64,000 bases of DNA from positions 138,490 to 202,489 of the forward strand of contig JAPLME010000010.1 in assembly GCA_026387175.1 (NCBI GenBank), in the 5' to 3' direction. Of this stretch, positions 17,450-26,023 are shown one piece after another. Made by a program: the position numbers and the translations under genes. The DNA is from Candidatus Omnitrophota bacterium. GTDB lineage: Bacteria; Omnitrophota; Gorgyraeia; 2-01-FULL-45-10. Position 1 is the first letter of the stretch, and the number at the start of each line of letters is the position of its first letter. The notes below the pieces were generated by a model. The model had not been told where the DNA came from. It saw nothing but the letters and a program-made list of their open reading frames with translations, and ran no database searches.

Positions 17450-19171
17450 ATGAAGACCACCCGCCTTATAATATTACTGGTAATGACGCTACTTTTAGCG
17501 CCGCCGCGAGCTTTCGCCCAGCCGCCCAATCCTAGCCAGGAGATCGGCGGTATCCAGAGGACTCGCGAGATGGAAGAGAGGGCGAAGAAATTAACATCGG
17601 AAGTTCAAGCGAAGAAACAGAAGCCTAAGATAGAAGAAGAGAAATTACCGTCCGAAATAGCTCCGGCCCTCCCCAACGAAAAGATCCTGATCAAGAATGT
17701 AGTGGTTATCGGTGCCACGCTGATACCGGAAAAAGACATCAGGGCCATAGTCGATCCTTTCGAAAATAAAGAGCTTTCTATTGCGGAGATGCAGAAGGCG
17801 GTGGACCTGATAACGGATGCCTACCGCAAAAAAGGGTATATAACGTCGCGCGCTTATATCCCTCCCCAGAAGATCGAAAATAACAGGTTTGAGATAAGGG
17901 TCATCGAGGGAAAGATGGGAGATCTCGACGTAACGGGTAACCGCTACTATAAGAACTTTCTCTTTAAAAAAAAATTCCTGCTGAAAAAGGGCGAGGCCTT
18001 TAACTACTATGTCCTCGCCAGGACCCTGCGCAAGATAAATGAGCAGCCGGACAGGTTCGCAAAGGCGGTCCTGGTTCCCGGTAAAGAGCCTGGCGCCACG
18101 GATGTCGTGCTGGAAGTGAAAGACGACCTGCCCGCTCATGCGGGAGTTAATTACGACAATTACGGCTCGCGCTACATCCTGAACGACCGCTATCAGTTCA
18201 ACGTTTCACACAATAATCTTTTGGGTTTCGAGGACCTGTTTCAATTCCAGTATACTATGACGCAGGCTGAGACGTATCGTCTTATAGGCGGAAGCTACGT
18301 TCTCCCGCTGACAGAGAAACTTAAAGTGGGATTCTCCGCTCTCTGGGCAAAACTGCATCTATTGAATGACTATAAGCCGCTCGATGTGCGCGGCAAGAGC
18401 GAGCTATACAGCATCTTCGCCACGCAATCTATCCTGGATGAAGAAAAATACAGCGTGAATTTGAATGCCGGATTCGATATAAAAGACGTCTTTAACTTTC
18501 AAAACGACCAGGAGACGAGCCGCGACAGGATGCGCGTAGCTAAGATAGGAATAGACGCCGATCTCACCGATCCGCTCGGGCGAAGTATATTTACAAACGG
18601 AGTAGAGATAGGCATACCGGGCTTCATGGGCGGCCTTAAATACAAGGACCCGCGAGCTTCCACTGTCGGTTCAGGCGGCGAGTTTGTAAAGTATGTTATG
18701 AACTTTTACCGGTTACAGCCGATGCCGTTCGAATCATCGATCCTTTTCAAAAACCAACTGCAGGTTTCGAACAAGCCGCTTACGTCTACTGAACAGTTTC
18801 AGATAGGCGGCATCATCAATACGAGGGGGTATCCTCCGGCTGAACTCGTAGGCGATCAGGGTTTTTCCAGCACGACCGAGTGGTCCTTCCCGGTATATTT
18901 ACTGCCTAAAGACGCGAAGATCCCGTCGACGCAGATCAATTGGTATGATACCGTAAGATTTGTCACTTTTTATGATTACGGCAACGTCCGCTTAAGAAAA
19001 CCGGGAGGCAACGCGAGTAAATTCGGCCAATTAAGCGATTTCGGATGGGGAATCAGATTTAACCTGCCGAAACATTTTTCTTTCAAAGTGGATTTCGCCT
19101 ATCCCATTGATAAAGGCGCTTCCGATGGCAAAACTAACCGCACCTGGATGCAGATCTCGTCGAATTTTTAA
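17450..19171 (+). CDS. Two-partner secretion outer-membrane transporter (TpsB; ShlB/FhaC/HecB family)
   Basis: Signal peptide, POTRA region (ITSRAYIPPQKIENNRFEIRVIEGKMGDLDVTGN) and a C-terminal beta-barrel ending in an aromatic residue. Confidence 0.85.
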   Translation: MKTTRLIILLVMTLLLAPPRAFAQPPNPSQEIGGIQRTREMEERAKKLTSEVQAKKQKPKIEEEKLPSEIAPALPNEKILIKNVVVIGATLIPEKDIRAIVDPFENKELSIAEMQKAVDLITDAYRKKGYITSRAYIPPQKIENNRFEIRVIEGKMGDLDVTGNRYYKNFLFKKKFLLKKGEAFNYYVLARTLRKINEQPDRFAKAVLVPGKEPGATDVVLEVKDDLPAHAGVNYDNYGSRYILNDRYQFNVSHNNLLGFEDLFQFQYTMTQAETYRLIGGSYVLPLTEKLKVGFSALWAKLHLLNDYKPLDVRGKSELYSIFATQSILDEEKYSVNLNAGFDIKDVFNFQNDQETSRDRMRVAKIGIDADLTDPLGRSIFTNGVEIGIPGFMGGLKYKDPRASTVGSGGEFVKYVMNFYRLQPMPFESSILFKNQLQVSNKPLTSTEQFQIGGIINTRGYPPAELVGDQGFSSTTEWSFPVYLLPKDAKIPSTQINWYDTVRFVTFYDYGNVRLRKPGGNASKFGQLSDFGWGIRFNLPKHFSFKVDFAYPIDKGASDGKTNRTWMQISSNF

Positions 19172-19260
19172 GTGTAATTTGAATTCATGTAAAATATAAA
19201 AAAGTAAGCTTTTCTGATTGACTTTCGTTTCCCCAGGGTGTAAGATGAAGATGAGGGAAG

Positions 19261-25200: not shown

Positions 25201-25272
25201 GCGCTGAAGGCCGGCAACTCTTACACGAACCTCACGTTCTCCGGCACAGACAGGCACATACACATTAGATAG
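19261..25272 (+). CDS. Giant TpsA-type secreted exoprotein/adhesin, N-terminal 2,003 aa up to an apparent frameshift
   Basis: N-terminal TPS (haemagglutination activity) domain with NSNGIVFG. More than 30 copies of the autotransporter-associated beta-strand repeat (GTLTLSGANTYTGxTTVNAGTL). Start may be ATG 19282 (MKTN...). Confidence 0.85.
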   Translation: MRGGENAMKTNLRRIVMTKKWPIICLSLILFSLIISPVALFADPQDASNNLPSGEKVVSGNVTVDRSIANTLNVNIASQNAIVEWTSFSIASGYTTNFNFNIAQPSLGSILNNVTGPNMSVINGAMNSNGNVLLVNSNGIVFGESSRVNCASMIASTLKIDYDNFLNPVNGQYKFYKDGGNGFIINAGRIAAQPGGYIVLLSQAIDNSGTITVSSIDAKVGRIVLASGERMTVAMDDRSLISVAIEDGVKSAIFGPDGAQMKSAIKNSGSLLADGGRITLTAKSMNKVFDYAINNTGIIQANSVVKNNGIIEFVVEGAPIVNTGRIEAGKVTINAVNTDLFNFGEIISQNVAELPDKGSIYINAVNMLQDGLISSNGVVAIDIDNMNTTQVIIYDPSSLAQDPNAASLPTAVIQGNEVRITFRKLGSTDQPIQIKAPTTYIYRKEGDIDISDSLGLGTSILMRGPPESNFSIIYSKDTNLTLDAAHVTVVGTTPTHFYGNITFSDFICTVPDKEIYFEAGKTYTILGSLEIQGSYAKPVRLISSVWGSPWYIDSKSSQDIYYAWVQDSYNINPQEIIAILSTSHGGCYNWDPTVTWSGLSGANSNWSTGANWVGGSAPGVNDYLQFPDGAARMSNNNDFAAGTGFASIQFTGTSGGYTLNGNRITLGTGGITSSNTSGTNTINLEISMAADRTVTVATGGTLTISDIISGAGGITKDGSGILILTKANTYTGITNVNIGILNIQHKNALGSTAAGTVVSSGAALEIQGGITGVAEPITLNGSGISSSGALKSISGTNSITGAITLESATRINSNANTLTISGGIVGSGYALTVGGAGNVTFTAAAIAGAGTTVTKDGAGTLTYSAANTYTGLTTINAGTLAYGAGVDAIVGDVTVSGGTLDIAGRSDTVGAVTLTSGTITGTTGVLTGTSYTLESGTVNAILGGAGVALTKNTAGTVILTKTNTYTGATTISAGTLQYGANNVLSNSTAVTINGGATLDLNNFLGTVGSVAGFGNITLGSGTLTTGADDTSTTFSGVISGSGDLTKSGTGTLTLSGANTYTGVTTISAGTLSINTLANVSGGASSLGAPTTSLNGTIALGATGILQYTGSGHSSDRVINLTADGGTIDASGSGTLTLTGGVTGNKFNLVLTGNGAGVESGVIKTTSGTLTKNGIGTWTLSGANTYTGATTVNAGTLKAGVASVANTSGAFGKNSAVTMADVASAILDITGFNTQIGSITGGGAAGGNVTLGAATLTVGGDNTSPAAYAGVISGAGAITKIGTGTFTLSGANTYTGKTSIQNGILSATSINSVGGAASSLGMPTTVSNGTIDLGATNTTGQLTYTGGAATSDRVINLAGTTGDGVIDQSGTGLLKFTSDFTATGAGDKTLTLQGSTTGTGEIAGKIVNYDGTRITSVIKTGTGTWTLSGANTYTGLTTVSAGTLAYGANNVISTGDVTVSSGATLDLAGYSDSFGALTVTGSSVTTSGGNLTLTSTLKMTGGSISTGSGTLTLGGNVTGNASATSSTISGKLDLGAATRVFTIANGAAADDMLISAVIRSASGAFGINKAGLGTLTLSGANTYIGATTLNAGKLNINNSTALGTGTFDISGGDIDNTSGGPITLTNNNLQTWSSNFTFTGTNNLNLGTGGVTINATRTVTVDAGNLTVGGVITGGAGDGLTKDGSGTLILSGVNTYTGITKISMGTLSVATIGDGGVAGNLGQATNAAANLVLGGGTLQYTGATASTNRNFTLTTGTTSTIDITTAGTDLTISGASTNTTGALTKVGSGTLTLSGTNLYTGTTTVNAGTITCGVNNAFSSSTVMVSSGATLDIVGYNFSAGGTSFTNNGLVKLQGLSTQSVPNIAGSVEYTGTGTALKAGNSYTNLTFSGTVEYTGTGTALKAGNSYTNLTFSGTGTYTLASNLSVSSSVIVGVNDILDLVSYNLTGGASVTNNGLVKLQGLSTQSVPNIAGSVEYTGTGTALKAGNSYTNLTFSGTDRHIHIR
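24791..25248 (+). repeat. Near-identical intragenic DNA repeats: 140-nt copies at 24791-24930 and 25109-25248, plus a tandem 72-nt sub-repeat at 24931-25002
   Basis: The exact nucleotide string acgaataacggtctcgtaaaattacaaggtctctccacacagtcagtgcctaatatagcaggcagtgtagaatatacgggcacaggcacagcgctgaaggccggcaactcttacacgaacctcacgttctccggcaca occurs twice. Its last 72 nt occur a third time in tandem. Confidence 0.9.
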
Positions 25273-26023
25273 CGACCTTACTATAACAGGTGATTTAATG
25301 ATAGGTGTGGGTAGCACATTAAATTGCAGTAATAAAACTATTACTATCTCCGGTAACTGGACTAACAATGGAACATTCACTCCCGGCACGGGAACCGTTA
25401 AATTTACAGGCGCCGGCCAATCAAACATATCAGGCGATACCACCTTTAATAACCTCTATTGCGATATTGCCGGAAAGACTCTACAATTTACAGCGGGCTC
25501 GACCCAGACAATAACAGGCACCCTCACTTTGAAAGGTACGTCTATCATAAACCGCCTTATATTACAGAGTAGCGCTTCTCCCACGCAGTGGAAGATAGAT
25601 CCGCAAGGAACTGTAGCTGTGGATTTCCTTGAGGTGCACGATTCTAATAATGTAGGCCCGGCCATATATAATGCGAATAGTGTATTCTTTAATTGTATAG
25701 GTTGGGCAACAAATCCACCGCCTCCTTCTCCTACGCTTACAAATACAACGACTATAACCACCCAGCTCTCGACCCTGGAAAACCCCAGATACCCGTCTCC
25801 GGATATGGGGCAGATGACCACATATCAGATAAATATAGTCAATCCGAGCGTGGGCGGGGTGTACTTCTACCAGCCGCTGACGTCTTACGATATGGCGGCC
25901 TTTAACGCGATGATCCTTGACGCGAACTCTTACAGCTTCTTGAATGGCTCGATAAACCTGGTAGGCCATGAAGGACTCAGGTCGTTGTTCGAGAACTCCG
26001 GAAATCAGGGGCTCTCCCGATAA
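25249..26023 (+). CDS. Continuation of tpsA in the +1 frame (C-terminal about 255 aa; track ORF 25298..26023)
   Basis: Translation from 25253 (GTYTLDSDLTITGDL...) continues the repeat pattern seen after earlier repeat copies (GTGTYTLASNLSVSS...). Thr-rich, PPPPSP linker, then a non-repetitive C-terminal domain of about 90 aa. Confidence 0.65.

What the first reader, a model, noticed from the sequence alone, without database searches (positions are those of the whole stretch)
17450..26023. Two-partner secretion locus with a giant (about 2,250 aa) repeat-built TpsA
- tpsB (POTRA + barrel) is followed 90 nt later by a TpsA with a canonical N-terminal TPS domain (NSNGIVFG) and then more than 30 degenerate copies of the 20-25-aa beta-strand repeat GTLTLSGANTYTGxTTVNAGTL.
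- The C-terminal roughly 90 aa after a PPPPSP/Thr-rich linker are non-repetitive, so it could be an effector or toxin domain, although no VENN or other known CdiA-CT boundary is present.
- The gene order B-A followed immediately by toxin-antitoxin/nuclease cassettes is reminiscent of cdiBAI plus orphan modules.
- tpsB has a possible near-leaderless start: a TTGACG-17-TAATAT element lies just upstream and ATG 17450 has no SD.
Basis: partly seen in the sequence, partly recalled or inferred. Interest (0 to 1): 0.7.

Follow-up and report, generated by a model that had tools for sequence, protein, structure and literature searches.

The report
Omnitrophota two-partner secretion locus, frameshifted adhesin
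This is a genuine two-partner secretion locus from a Candidatus Omnitrophica genome whose giant repeat protein is broken by a 4-base duplication, and whose C-terminal end is a conserved, lineage-specific tail linked to three accessory genes, not a toxin.

Summary
The two-partner secretion (TPS) call is correct. tpsB (17450-19171) has POTRA_2 and ShlB domains. tpsA starts 89 nt later with a TPS domain, followed by autotransporter-type PATR beta-strand repeats.

Three points of the finding need correction.
- The "2,250-aa" gene is not one ORF. A tandem ACAG duplication (25246-25253) shifts the frame, giving 2,003 aa plus a 241-aa remnant. Deleting 4 nt restores 2,252 aa.
- Only 10 repeats fit the PATR profile, spaced 95-150 aa apart.
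- The C-terminal ~90 aa is not a variable toxin. A profile search found it in 141 protein clusters, almost always at the extreme C-terminus. Where the N-terminus is complete, the protein has a TPS domain. Named sources are Omnitrophota or Planctomycetia-labelled MAGs.

The cdiBAI/orphan-module reading is not supported. The most likely function is an adhesin-like fibre whose tail controls periplasmic retention or maturation, as in FhaB. That part is inference.

The parts
17450..19171 (+). tpsB: Omp85-family transporter, 573 aa, with a signal peptide (…PPRAFA), POTRA_2 at aa 81-154 and a ShlB barrel at aa 215-521. An RGY loop motif (NTRGY) is present.
   Evidence: Pfam; translation; 43-67% identical to TpsB of Omnitrophota relatives.
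19261..25272 (+). tpsA, 5' part. The ORF encodes 2,003 aa and ends at a premature TAG (25270-25272) created by the frameshift.
19414..20238 (+). TPS secretion domain (aa 52-326), with the NSNGIVFG (NPNG-type) motif.
   Evidence: PF05860 6.6e-20; TIGR01901 9.3e-16
20713..21006 (+). First copy of the un-named 'cap' module (aa 485-582), lying between the TPS stalk and the PATR region.
   Evidence: Local HMM built from homologues, domain E 1.8e-24
21397..24705 (+). PATR / autotransporter-associated beta-strand repeat region. It holds 10 profile-matching motifs (K-x-G-x-G-T-L-x-L-S-G-A-N-T-Y-T-G) at aa 713-1812, spaced 95-150 aa apart.
   Evidence: PF12951 4.1e-63 with 10 stretches; TIGR02601 7.8e-70; motif positions; DNA repeat families
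24778..25249 (+). Recent near-identical DNA duplications: 154-nt copies at 24778, 24850 and 25096, with the first and last 97% identical. They encode repeated ...VEYTGTGTALKAGNSYTNLTFSGT units.
25246..25253 (+). Frameshift site, a tandem ACAG-ACAG. The paralogous copy at 25000 has a single ACAG. Removing 4 nt restores a 2,252-aa ORF.
   Evidence: D2/D5 spacing of 250 against 246 for the flanking repeat; reconstruction; homologue P0002 reads through the equivalent site in one frame
25256..25696 (+). Second 'cap' module (aa 1998-2144 of the repaired protein). It lies mostly inside the 241-aa remnant ORF 25298-26023, annotated NTY76_05970.
   Evidence: 479 related stretches in metagenomes
25715..25732 (+). 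Pro-rich linker PPPPSP, followed by a Thr-rich stretch.
   Evidence: 42 of 103 family members have a Pro-rich stretch at this position
25733..26023 (+). Conserved extreme-C-terminal tail domain of about 90 aa (…GGVYFYQPLTSYDMAAFNAMILDANSYSFLNGSINLVGHEGL…) plus the stop codon. It has no cysteine.
   Evidence: Profile search of 1.84 billion proteins found 141 clusters; the YFYHP motif lies 24-68 aa from the C-terminus in 116 of 117; AF2 pLDDT 76; no PDB fold match
26052..26076 (+). Terminator-like hairpin AAGGGCAAGTGAATAACTTGCCCTT plus a T-run, copy 1 of 4. The other copies are at 27259-27283, 28118-28142 and 29577-29601. Each closes one cassette, and the last sits just upstream of gene X.
   Evidence: (0 expected by chance; none elsewhere in the 64 kb)
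26223..29488 (+). Three inserted cassettes that are not part of the TPS system: YhcG/DUF1016 PDDEXK nuclease (PDC-S02; 26223-27260), a 96-aa ORF plus a PIN toxin (27349-28037), and AbiEi/AbiEii (28252-29488).
   Evidence: Pfam; PADLOC. In relatives L004, L010, L012, L013 and L017, X-Y-Z follows tpsA within about 250 nt, leaving no room for such cassettes.
29667..30233 (+). Gene X: 188-aa lipoprotein (lipobox VSGC) with a SurA_N-like chaperone domain. It is a conserved partner of tail-bearing tpsA.
   Evidence: PF13624 4.7e-8; 32-46% identical orthologues next to tpsA in 8 loci
30244..30837 (+). Gene Y: 197-aa protein with two hydrophobic helices, then a HAMP-like segment and a coiled coil.
   Evidence: HAMP is weak in the window (1.4e-3) and 2e-6 in the L012 orthologue; NCBIfam partial matches to sensor-kinase TM2-HAMP regions; synteny

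Best explanation
The locus is a type Vb (two-partner) secretion system of a Candidatus Omnitrophica bacterium.

What the sequence shows:
- TpsB is the outer-membrane transporter.
- TpsA is an adhesin-like beta-helical fibre. Its order is signal peptide, TPS domain, a 'cap' module, about 1,300 aa of PATR-type beta-strand repeats, a second cap, a Pro-rich linker and a conserved tail of about 90 aa.
- The tail is not a polymorphic toxin. It is a lineage-specific domain that always ends TpsA proteins of this clade.
- The tail travels with three accessory genes: a SurA-like lipoprotein (X), a HAMP membrane protein (Y) and a secreted gluzincin metallopeptidase (Z).
- In this window a 4-nt duplication cuts tpsA after aa 2,003, removing the second cap, the linker and the tail. 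This could be a real inactivating or releasing mutation, or an assembly error in near-identical repeats.
- Three defence/toxin-antitoxin cassettes were inserted between tpsA and X-Y-Z. Each ends in a copy of the local terminator hairpin.

What is inferred: the Pro-rich linker and tail stay on the periplasmic side of TpsB after the fibre is exported. There they act as a retention and maturation-control element handled by X-Y-Z, with Z as the processing protease. This is analogous to the PRR-ECT end of the Bordetella FhaB prodomain.
For: TPS identity:
- Pfam and NCBIfam hits.
- B-A order in relatives.

Frameshift:
- define it.
- The nearest homologue, P0002, is 63% identical over 273 aa and continuous across the site.
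- The 241-aa ORF has no SD and no signal peptide.

The tail is a conserved TpsA end:
- 141 clusters carry it.
- 39 of 56 members of at least 600 aa carry a TPS domain. The other 17 lack a convincing signal peptide and look truncated.
- The motif lies 24-68 aa from the C-terminus in 116 of 117.
- All 14 genome loci come from Omnitrophota (10) or Planctomycetia-labelled (4) MAGs.

X-Y-Z linkage:
- Starting independently from Z homologues again gives tpsB-tpsA(tail)-X-Y-Z in L018 and L020.

Insertion of cassettes:
- Four hairpin copies occur only at the cassette ends.
- The cassettes are AbiE, PIN and PDC-S02.

Precedent:
- The FhaB PRR and its 98-aa ECT are periplasmic, and the ECT restrains prodomain degradation (PMC4542190).
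- The HMW1 and HxuA C-termini remain periplasmic as anchors (PMC5422565).
Against: - The location of the tail (periplasm or surface) is not shown by anything here.
- The AF2 tail model is only moderate (pLDDT 76, pTM 0.34) and matches no solved fold.
- Homology to the FhaB ECT was not tested.
- The tail has no Cys pair, so it is not an HMW1-type anchor.
- The adhesin role is inferred from architecture only.
- If the frameshift is real, the system in this genome lacks the very domain on which the mechanism rests.
Confidence: 0.6

Rival explanations
1. CDI-like system. TpsA delivers its C-terminal ~90 aa as a toxin or effector, and the downstream toxin-antitoxin and nuclease genes are immunity or orphan modules.
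For: B-A gene order; a non-repetitive C-terminus after a linker; nuclease and toxin genes downstream.
Against: - There is no VENN/PT-VENN motif and no FHA-1/FHA-2 or DUF637 hits.
- The tail is conserved across 141 clusters instead of varying.
- No ORF lies directly downstream. A 199-nt spacer with two hairpins follows tpsA.
- The downstream genes are canonical AbiE, PIN and PDC-S02 with their own promoter-like sites and terminators.
- Several relatives have X-Y-Z within about 250 nt of tpsA instead.
- The invariant tail residues are mostly aromatic, Pro or Gly.
Confidence: 0.04
2. The tail is exported and forms the distal tip of the fibre as a conserved binding domain, for example for host-cell attachment by these small, possibly episymbiotic bacteria. 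X-Y-Z would then only assist folding or export.
For: - In FHA the C-terminal end of the mature protein is distal and functional (background in PMC4542190).
- The tail is conserved while the fibre body varies between PATR, MBG and YDG types.
- Omnitrophota are proposed to attach to other cells (PMC10066038).
Against: - A periplasmic chaperone-like lipoprotein, an inner-membrane protein and a signal-peptide protease fit a periplasmic substrate better.
- The known conserved TpsA extreme C-termini (FhaB ECT, HMW1, HxuA) are periplasmic.
- No lectin or adhesin fold was detected.
Confidence: 0.22
3. In this genome the locus is a decaying pseudogene. The ACAG duplication is real, tpsA is inactivated, and the defence-cassette insertions have uncoupled it from X-Y-Z.
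For: - Frameshift and premature stop.
- 3.6 kb of foreign cassettes with terminators lie between tpsA and X.
- NCBI annotates the remnant separately as NTY76_05970.
Against: - The window comes from a metagenome-assembled genome, and the shift sits at the edge of 97%-identical 154-nt repeats where assemblers err.
- Both reading frames are otherwise intact over 6.7 kb, with no second lesion.
- tpsB, X, Y and Z are intact.
- A 2,003-aa product would keep its TPS domain and could still be secreted.
Confidence: 0.35
4. Two genuine genes: a 2,003-aa TpsA plus an independent 241-aa protein.
For: Both are open reading frames, and the second is annotated as a protein.
Against: - The 241-aa ORF has no SD and no signal peptide.
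- The frames join seamlessly after removing 4 nt.
- Homologue P0002 is continuous across the junction.
- In full-length relatives the tail ends TPS-domain proteins of 779-4,675 aa.
Confidence: 0.03

Closest known systems
Bordetella FhaB/FhaC (type Vb), in particular the FhaB prodomain end: the proline-rich region (PRR) plus the 98-aa extreme C-terminus (ECT)
   Same: - TpsB with POTRA domains, and a TpsA with an N-terminal TPS domain and a long beta-helix.
- A Pro-rich stretch followed by a strictly conserved C-terminal domain of about 90-100 aa.
- Dedicated proteolysis is part of maturation: DegP, CtpA and SphB1 in Bordetella, against a linked metallopeptidase Z here.
   Different: - No sequence relationship was shown.
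- There is no 1,200-aa prodomain here.
- The fibre is built from PATR repeats, not FHA repeats.
- The accessory genes X-Y-Z are encoded next to tpsA and have no described counterpart.
- The lineage is Omnitrophota, not Proteobacteria.
H. influenzae HMW1/HMW1B and HxuA/HxuB C-terminal anchors
   Same: A short C-terminal segment of a TpsA adhesin that remains periplasmic and tethers the protein to TpsB (PMC5422565).
   Different: Those anchors rely on a disulfide-bonded loop. The tail here has no cysteine and is longer.
CdiB/CdiA/CdiI contact-dependent inhibition
   Same: B-A gene order and a giant TPS-domain exoprotein with a distinct C-terminal region.
   Different: There is no VENN motif, no FHA-1/FHA-2 repeats, no variable toxin and no immunity gene. 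The downstream cassettes are unrelated defence/toxin-antitoxin modules.
PATR (PF12951 / TIGR02601) autotransporter passenger repeats
   Same: Ten repeats match the family profile strongly (4.1e-63).
   Different: There is no C-terminal autotransporter barrel. Export is by a separate TpsB via an N-terminal TPS domain. The same TPS+PATR combination is seen in another Omnitrophota protein (P0022).
Gluzincin metallopeptidases (M30 lugdulysin; M1 and M9 catalytic domains), compared with gene Z
   Different: Z has only about 170 mature residues, matches no Pfam or NCBIfam family, and is 9-15% identical to the solved enzymes. It is restricted to Omnitrophota-type genomes and linked to tpsA.

Membership tests
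Two-partner secretion (type Vb) | Omp85-family TpsB with POTRA domains and a ShlB/FhaC-type barrel | tested here: met
   PF08479 1.5e-21 and PF03865 1.1e-23, both above the curated cut-offs
Two-partner secretion (type Vb) | TpsA with an N-terminal TPS domain carrying the NPNG-type motif, behind a signal peptide | tested here: met
   PF05860 72.5 bits (cut-off 33.5) and TIGR01901 57.5 bits (cut-off 29.1); NSNGIVFG and a hydrophobic leader are visible
Two-partner secretion (type Vb) | tpsB and tpsA adjacent on the same strand | tested here: met
   89-nt spacer; the same order in at least 10 related loci
Two-partner secretion (type Vb) | TpsB-dependent export of TpsA | not testable with these tools
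   Needs an experiment
CdiBAI contact-dependent inhibition | Pretoxin VENN (PF04829) boundary and FHA-1/FHA-2 repeat regions | tested here: not met
   Pfam returns only TPS and PATR; there is no 'VENN' string in the repaired protein
CdiBAI contact-dependent inhibition | C-terminal toxin that varies between homologues | tested here: not met
   The same tail occurs in 141 clusters; it has no Pfam, NCBIfam or PADLOC match
CdiBAI contact-dependent inhibition | Immunity gene directly downstream, and orphan CT/immunity pairs | tested here: not met
   A 199-nt spacer with hairpins is followed by YhcG/PDC-S02, PIN and AbiE cassettes; several relatives carry X-Y-Z within about 250 nt instead
Classical (type Va) autotransporter with PATR passenger | PATR repeats | tested here: met
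   PF12951, 10 stretches, 209.5 bits
Classical (type Va) autotransporter with PATR passenger | C-terminal 12-strand autotransporter barrel | tested here: not met
   No such Pfam or NCBIfam hit in either ORF
FhaB-type PRR + ECT prodomain end | A Pro-rich region followed by a conserved extreme C-terminus of about 100 aa | tested here: met
   PPPPSP plus a ~90-aa conserved tail; 42 of 103 family members have the Pro-rich stretch. This shows similar architecture only.
FhaB-type PRR + ECT prodomain end | Sequence homology to the FhaB ECT | not tested
FhaB-type PRR + ECT prodomain end | Periplasmic location and control of proteolysis | not testable with these tools
   Needs an experiment
HMW1/HxuA C-terminal anchor | Disulfide-bonded loop in the C-terminal segment | tested here: not met
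   No cysteine in the last 100 aa
Gluzincin zinc metallopeptidase (gene Z) | HExxH plus a downstream Glu ligand, conserved in the family | tested here: met
   E162, H165, E182 and E189 are invariant and H161 nearly invariant in 64 sequences
Gluzincin zinc metallopeptidase (gene Z) | Thermolysin-like catalytic fold | tested here: met
Gluzincin zinc metallopeptidase (gene Z) | Membership of a curated peptidase family | tested here: not met
   Pfam gives only sub-threshold SprT-like and M48 hits (E about 0.09); NCBIfam gives none

The most novel reading that the evidence does not exclude
Tail-bearing TpsA proteins together with X (SurA-like lipoprotein), Y (HAMP membrane protein) and Z (mini-gluzincin) form an undescribed five-component variant of type Vb secretion, specific to Omnitrophota and their PVC relatives. 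In it, a dedicated periplasmic and inner-membrane module recognises a conserved C-terminal sorting or retention domain and controls anchoring or release of surface fibres. These fibres may be the attachment organelles of these ultra-small, host-dependent bacteria.
Probability: 0.35. Interest if true: 0.7.

Novelty: new variant of a known kind. Interest (0 to 1): 0.5.

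Why it matters
Two-partner secretion is usually described as a two-protein pathway studied in Proteobacteria. Here a deep-branching, uncultured phylum thought to live attached to other cells carries TPS loci with a conserved C-terminal domain and three linked accessory genes. None of the four matches a curated family. If the tail and X-Y-Z control retention or release, this would be a second, independent example of the periplasmic maturation control known only from Bordetella FhaB. 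It would also give a handle on how Omnitrophota build their surface fibres. For annotation, the result gives three specific cautions:
- the 2,250-aa gene is interrupted in this assembly;
- a non-repetitive TpsA C-terminus should not be read as a toxin without checking whether it varies between homologues;
- the neighbouring toxin-antitoxin genes are unrelated insertions.

Tried and rejected
- **Toxin or effector at the C-terminus.** Pfam, NCBIfam and PADLOC scans of the 241-aa remnant gave nothing. Conservation argues against a toxin.
- **Fold of the tail.** Foldseek against PDB gave a best E of 0.89, so there is no match. The afdb50 library was unavailable.
- **Testing the frameshift in close relatives.**
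  - The metagenome scan with the C-terminal 256 aa found 479 relatives, but only through the widespread cap module and at no more than 56% identity.
  - Contigs of the closest Z homologues (81-83% identical) break at gene X.
  - An apparent second split TpsA in L017 turned out to be an N-gap. L003 is also gapped.
- **Programmed frameshifting.** I saw no slippery motif and have no conservation evidence for one. I considered it unlikely and did not pursue it.
- **Rfam scan of 15.7-31.6 kb.** The only hit was a sub-threshold NsiR1 match on the first hairpin (24 bits against a gathering score of 39), which I rejected.
- **The hairpin repeat.** It was not found in any of the 104 related loci.
- **Integron attC reading of the hairpins.** I considered it from memory only. 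No integrase was looked for, and the element looks like a plain terminator. I left it as an observation.
- **Literature.** No paper links Omnitrophica with two-partner secretion. The main Omnitrophota genomics paper does not mention type V secretion.

Full report
**1. What is at the coordinates**

ORF listing shows tpsB at 17450-19171 (573 aa). After it there are two ORFs in different frames, not one: 19261-25272 (2,003 aa) and 25298-26023 (241 aa). TpsB carries POTRA_2 (1.5e-21) and the ShlB/FhaC barrel (1.1e-23). The 2,003-aa protein carries a TPS secretion domain at aa 52-326 (PF05860 6.6e-20; TIGR01901 'adhes_NPXG' 9.3e-16). It also has ten matches to the Passenger-associated-transport-repeat, also called the autotransporter-associated beta-strand repeat (PF12951 4.1e-63; TIGR02601 7.8e-70). 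It occurs 10 times at intervals of 95-150 aa. The intervening rungs are too degenerate for the profile, and a loose regex counts about 30.

**2. The frameshift**

Near-identical 154-nt DNA copies lie at 24778, 24850 and 25096, spaced by multiples of three. The next repeat segment is offset by 250 nt instead of 246. The sequence reads CCGGCACAG-ACAG-GCACATACAC, whereas the paralogous copy at 25000 has a single ACAG. Deleting any 4 nt within this region fuses the two ORFs into 2,252 aa, with the junction …NLTFSGTGTYTLDSDLTITG….

Three results show the two ORFs were one gene:
- The nearest homologue, P0002, aligns at 63% identity over 273 aa in one frame across the junction.
- The 241-aa ORF has neither an SD nor a signal peptide.
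- In relatives the same C-terminal domain ends large TPS proteins.

The window belongs to a Candidatus Omnitrophica MAG, where the remnant is annotated NTY76_05970 on a 234,929-bp contig. I cannot decide whether the duplication is real or an assembly error at the edge of 97%-identical repeats. No close relative was recovered.

**3. Architecture of the repaired TpsA**

The order is:
- signal peptide;
- TPS domain, aa 52-326;
- a further beta-helical stretch;
- a 'cap' module, aa 485-582;
- the PATR region, about aa 713-1812, followed by recently duplicated units;
- a second cap module, aa 1998-2144;
- the PPPPSP / Thr-rich linker;
- a tail of about 90 aa.

The cap module (…SGNWTNNGTFTPGTGTV…DTTFNN…AGKTLQFTAGSTQTITG…L.S…W.IDPQG…V.D) has no Pfam or NCBIfam family. 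An HMM built from the homologues finds both copies (E 1.8e-24 and 3.4e-66). A metagenome scan found 479 related stretches. It is a common, un-named surface-protein module.

**4. The tail is conserved, not variable**

I searched a three-sequence profile of the tail against 1.84 billion representative proteins. It returned 141 clusters with E of 1e-3 or better, 52 of them at 1e-10 or better. In almost every case the match ends within a few residues of the C-terminus, in proteins of 45-4,675 aa. The core YFYHP motif lies 24-68 aa from the end in 116 of 117 members that have it.

Of the 56 members of at least 600 aa, 39 have a TPS domain at the N-terminus. The other 17 start mid-repeat without a convincing signal peptide, which is what contig-end fragments look like. 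A genome scan returned 14 loci, 10 titled Candidatus Omnitrophota/Omnitrophica and 4 titled 'uncultured Planctomycetia/-ales' MAGs.

The fibre bodies differ between members (PATR here; MBG_2 and YDG elsewhere), yet the tail is the same. This is the opposite of the polymorphic-toxin pattern. The tail matches nothing in Pfam, NCBIfam or PADLOC. Its AF2 model is moderate (pLDDT 76, pTM 0.34; three or four short helices and a hairpin) and has no PDB fold neighbour (best E 0.89). It contains no cysteine. A Pro-rich stretch precedes the tail in 42 of 103 members, against 2.4% Pro in the protein bodies, and 34 members end in a Lys-rich run.

**5. Conserved partners outside the reported coordinates**

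In relatives the tail-bearing tpsA is followed by three small genes:
- within 100-250 nt in L004, L010, L012, L013 and L017;
- 1.7 kb away in L009;
- 7.6 kb away in L011;
- adjacent but inverted in L015.

Their orthologues in the window are 29667-30233 (X), 30244-30837 (Y) and 30845-31438 (Z), at 32-50% identity. Four tail loci (L006, L008, L014, L016) showed no X-Y-Z in the 2-10 kb available. Starting instead from two arbitrary Z homologues again gave tpsB-tpsA-X-Y-Z, and both TpsAs end with the tail.

- **X** is a lipoprotein (lipobox …VSGC) with a SurA_N-like chaperone domain.
- **Y** has two hydrophobic helices followed by a HAMP-like segment.

**6. The flanking toxin-antitoxin and nuclease genes**

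Upstream lies an AbiEii/AbiEi pair (15924-17343). Downstream lie YhcG/DUF1016 (PDC-S02 in PADLOC), a 96-aa ORF plus a PIN toxin, and AbiEi/AbiEii. These are standard toxin-antitoxin or defence modules, not CdiA-CT/CdiI pairs.

A 25-nt hairpin followed by a T-run (AAGGGCAAGTGAATAACTTGCCCTT) occurs four times in the 64 kb. The four sites are directly after tpsA (26052), after yhcG (27259), after the PIN gene (28118) and after abiEii (29577), the last just upstream of X. None is expected by chance. Several relatives have X-Y-Z within about 250 nt of tpsA. The simplest reading is therefore that three cassettes were inserted at the tpsA-X terminator, each ending in a copy of it. The insertion mechanism is unknown.

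**7. Minor claims**

The TTGACG-17-TAATAT element exists at 17411-17439, 10 nt before ATG 17450. A terminator-like hairpin (17358-17384) precedes it, and there is no SD. A short or absent leader is therefore possible. However, the promoter match is only 9/12 and such matches are frequent (37 found against 20 expected). Several other genes here also lack an SD.

**8. Mechanism**

Shown by the data: a type Vb system with an adhesin-like PATR fibre, plus a clade-specific conserved C-terminal domain that is genetically linked to a chaperone-like lipoprotein, a membrane HAMP protein and a secreted metallopeptidase.

Inferred: after TpsB-mediated export of the fibre, the Pro-rich linker and tail stay periplasmic. 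There they are bound or processed by X-Y-Z, which would set whether the fibre stays tethered or is released.

The closest precedent is FhaB. Its PRR and 98-aa ECT are periplasmic, and the ECT restrains prodomain degradation (PMC4542190). The C-termini of HMW1 and HxuA are also periplasmic anchors, but they use a disulfide loop that is absent here (PMC5422565). The main rival is that the tail is a surface-exposed tip domain. Nothing here decides the topology.

**9. Novelty**

The TPS locus itself is a new member of a known kind. The conserved tail plus X-Y-Z module has no curated family. I found no paper linking Omnitrophota to two-partner secretion. I rate it a new variant of a known kind and moderately interesting. 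The toxin / CDI reading that gave the finding its original score is not supported.

Noticed in passing
window 26052-26076, 27259-27283, 28118-28142, 29577-29601: A 25-nt hairpin plus T-run is repeated four times and nowhere else in the 64 kb. Each copy closes tpsA or one inserted defence/toxin-antitoxin cassette. Longer flanking similarity defines two subtypes: 26017-26118 resembles 27223-27290, and 28059-28184 resembles 29485-29607. It looks like a cassette array built at one terminator. The insertion mechanism is unknown.
   Followed up: partly
window 20713-21006 and 25256-25696: A 'cap' module of about 100-150 aa (NWTNNGTF…DTTFYNF…AGSTQTI…W.IDPQG…DS.N) has no Pfam or NCBIfam family. It occurs twice in TpsA and in 479 metagenome stretches, many of them in short secreted proteins.
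   Followed up: partly
window 15879-15916: A perfect 19+19-nt palindrome (AAGTAATATAGTTTAGTTA/TAACTAAACTATATTACTT) lies just upstream of the upstream abiEii gene. That pair is in the order AbiEii then AbiEi, the reverse of the downstream pair.
   Followed up: no
window 29485-29526: An exact 20-nt repeat (CTAGAGCCCGGGGCCATCCT), two copies with starts 22 nt apart, lies at the 3' end of abiEii. A 75% copy lies at 28059-28078, after the PIN gene.
   Followed up: no
window 26223-27260: The stand-alone YhcG/DUF1016 PDDEXK nuclease matches the PADLOC candidate defence family PDC-S02 at 4.4e-144. Together with two AbiE pairs and a PIN pair, this makes a small defence islet wrapped around the TPS locus.
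   Followed up: partly
L013 3-1739 and 1853-10222: A relative carries two tail-bearing tpsA genes in tandem, followed by one X-Y-Z set.
   Followed up: no
L002 7997-9721: In the closest sequenced relative (TpsA N-terminus 64% identical), tpsB is called as two ORFs, POTRA_2 (263 aa) and ShlB (271 aa). This could be another frameshift or an assembly error in this group of MAGs.
   Followed up: no
L018 10612-11091; L019 899-1378; L020 10717-11199: An ORF of about 160 aa with no Pfam hit follows Z in some relatives. It is absent from the window, where malQ follows Z. It may be a fourth accessory gene in part of the clade.
   Followed up: no
tail family (proteins): 34 family members end in a Lys-rich run (for example …EEIKKKKKxx) after the conserved GHxGLLP motif. 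The window protein does not.
   Followed up: no
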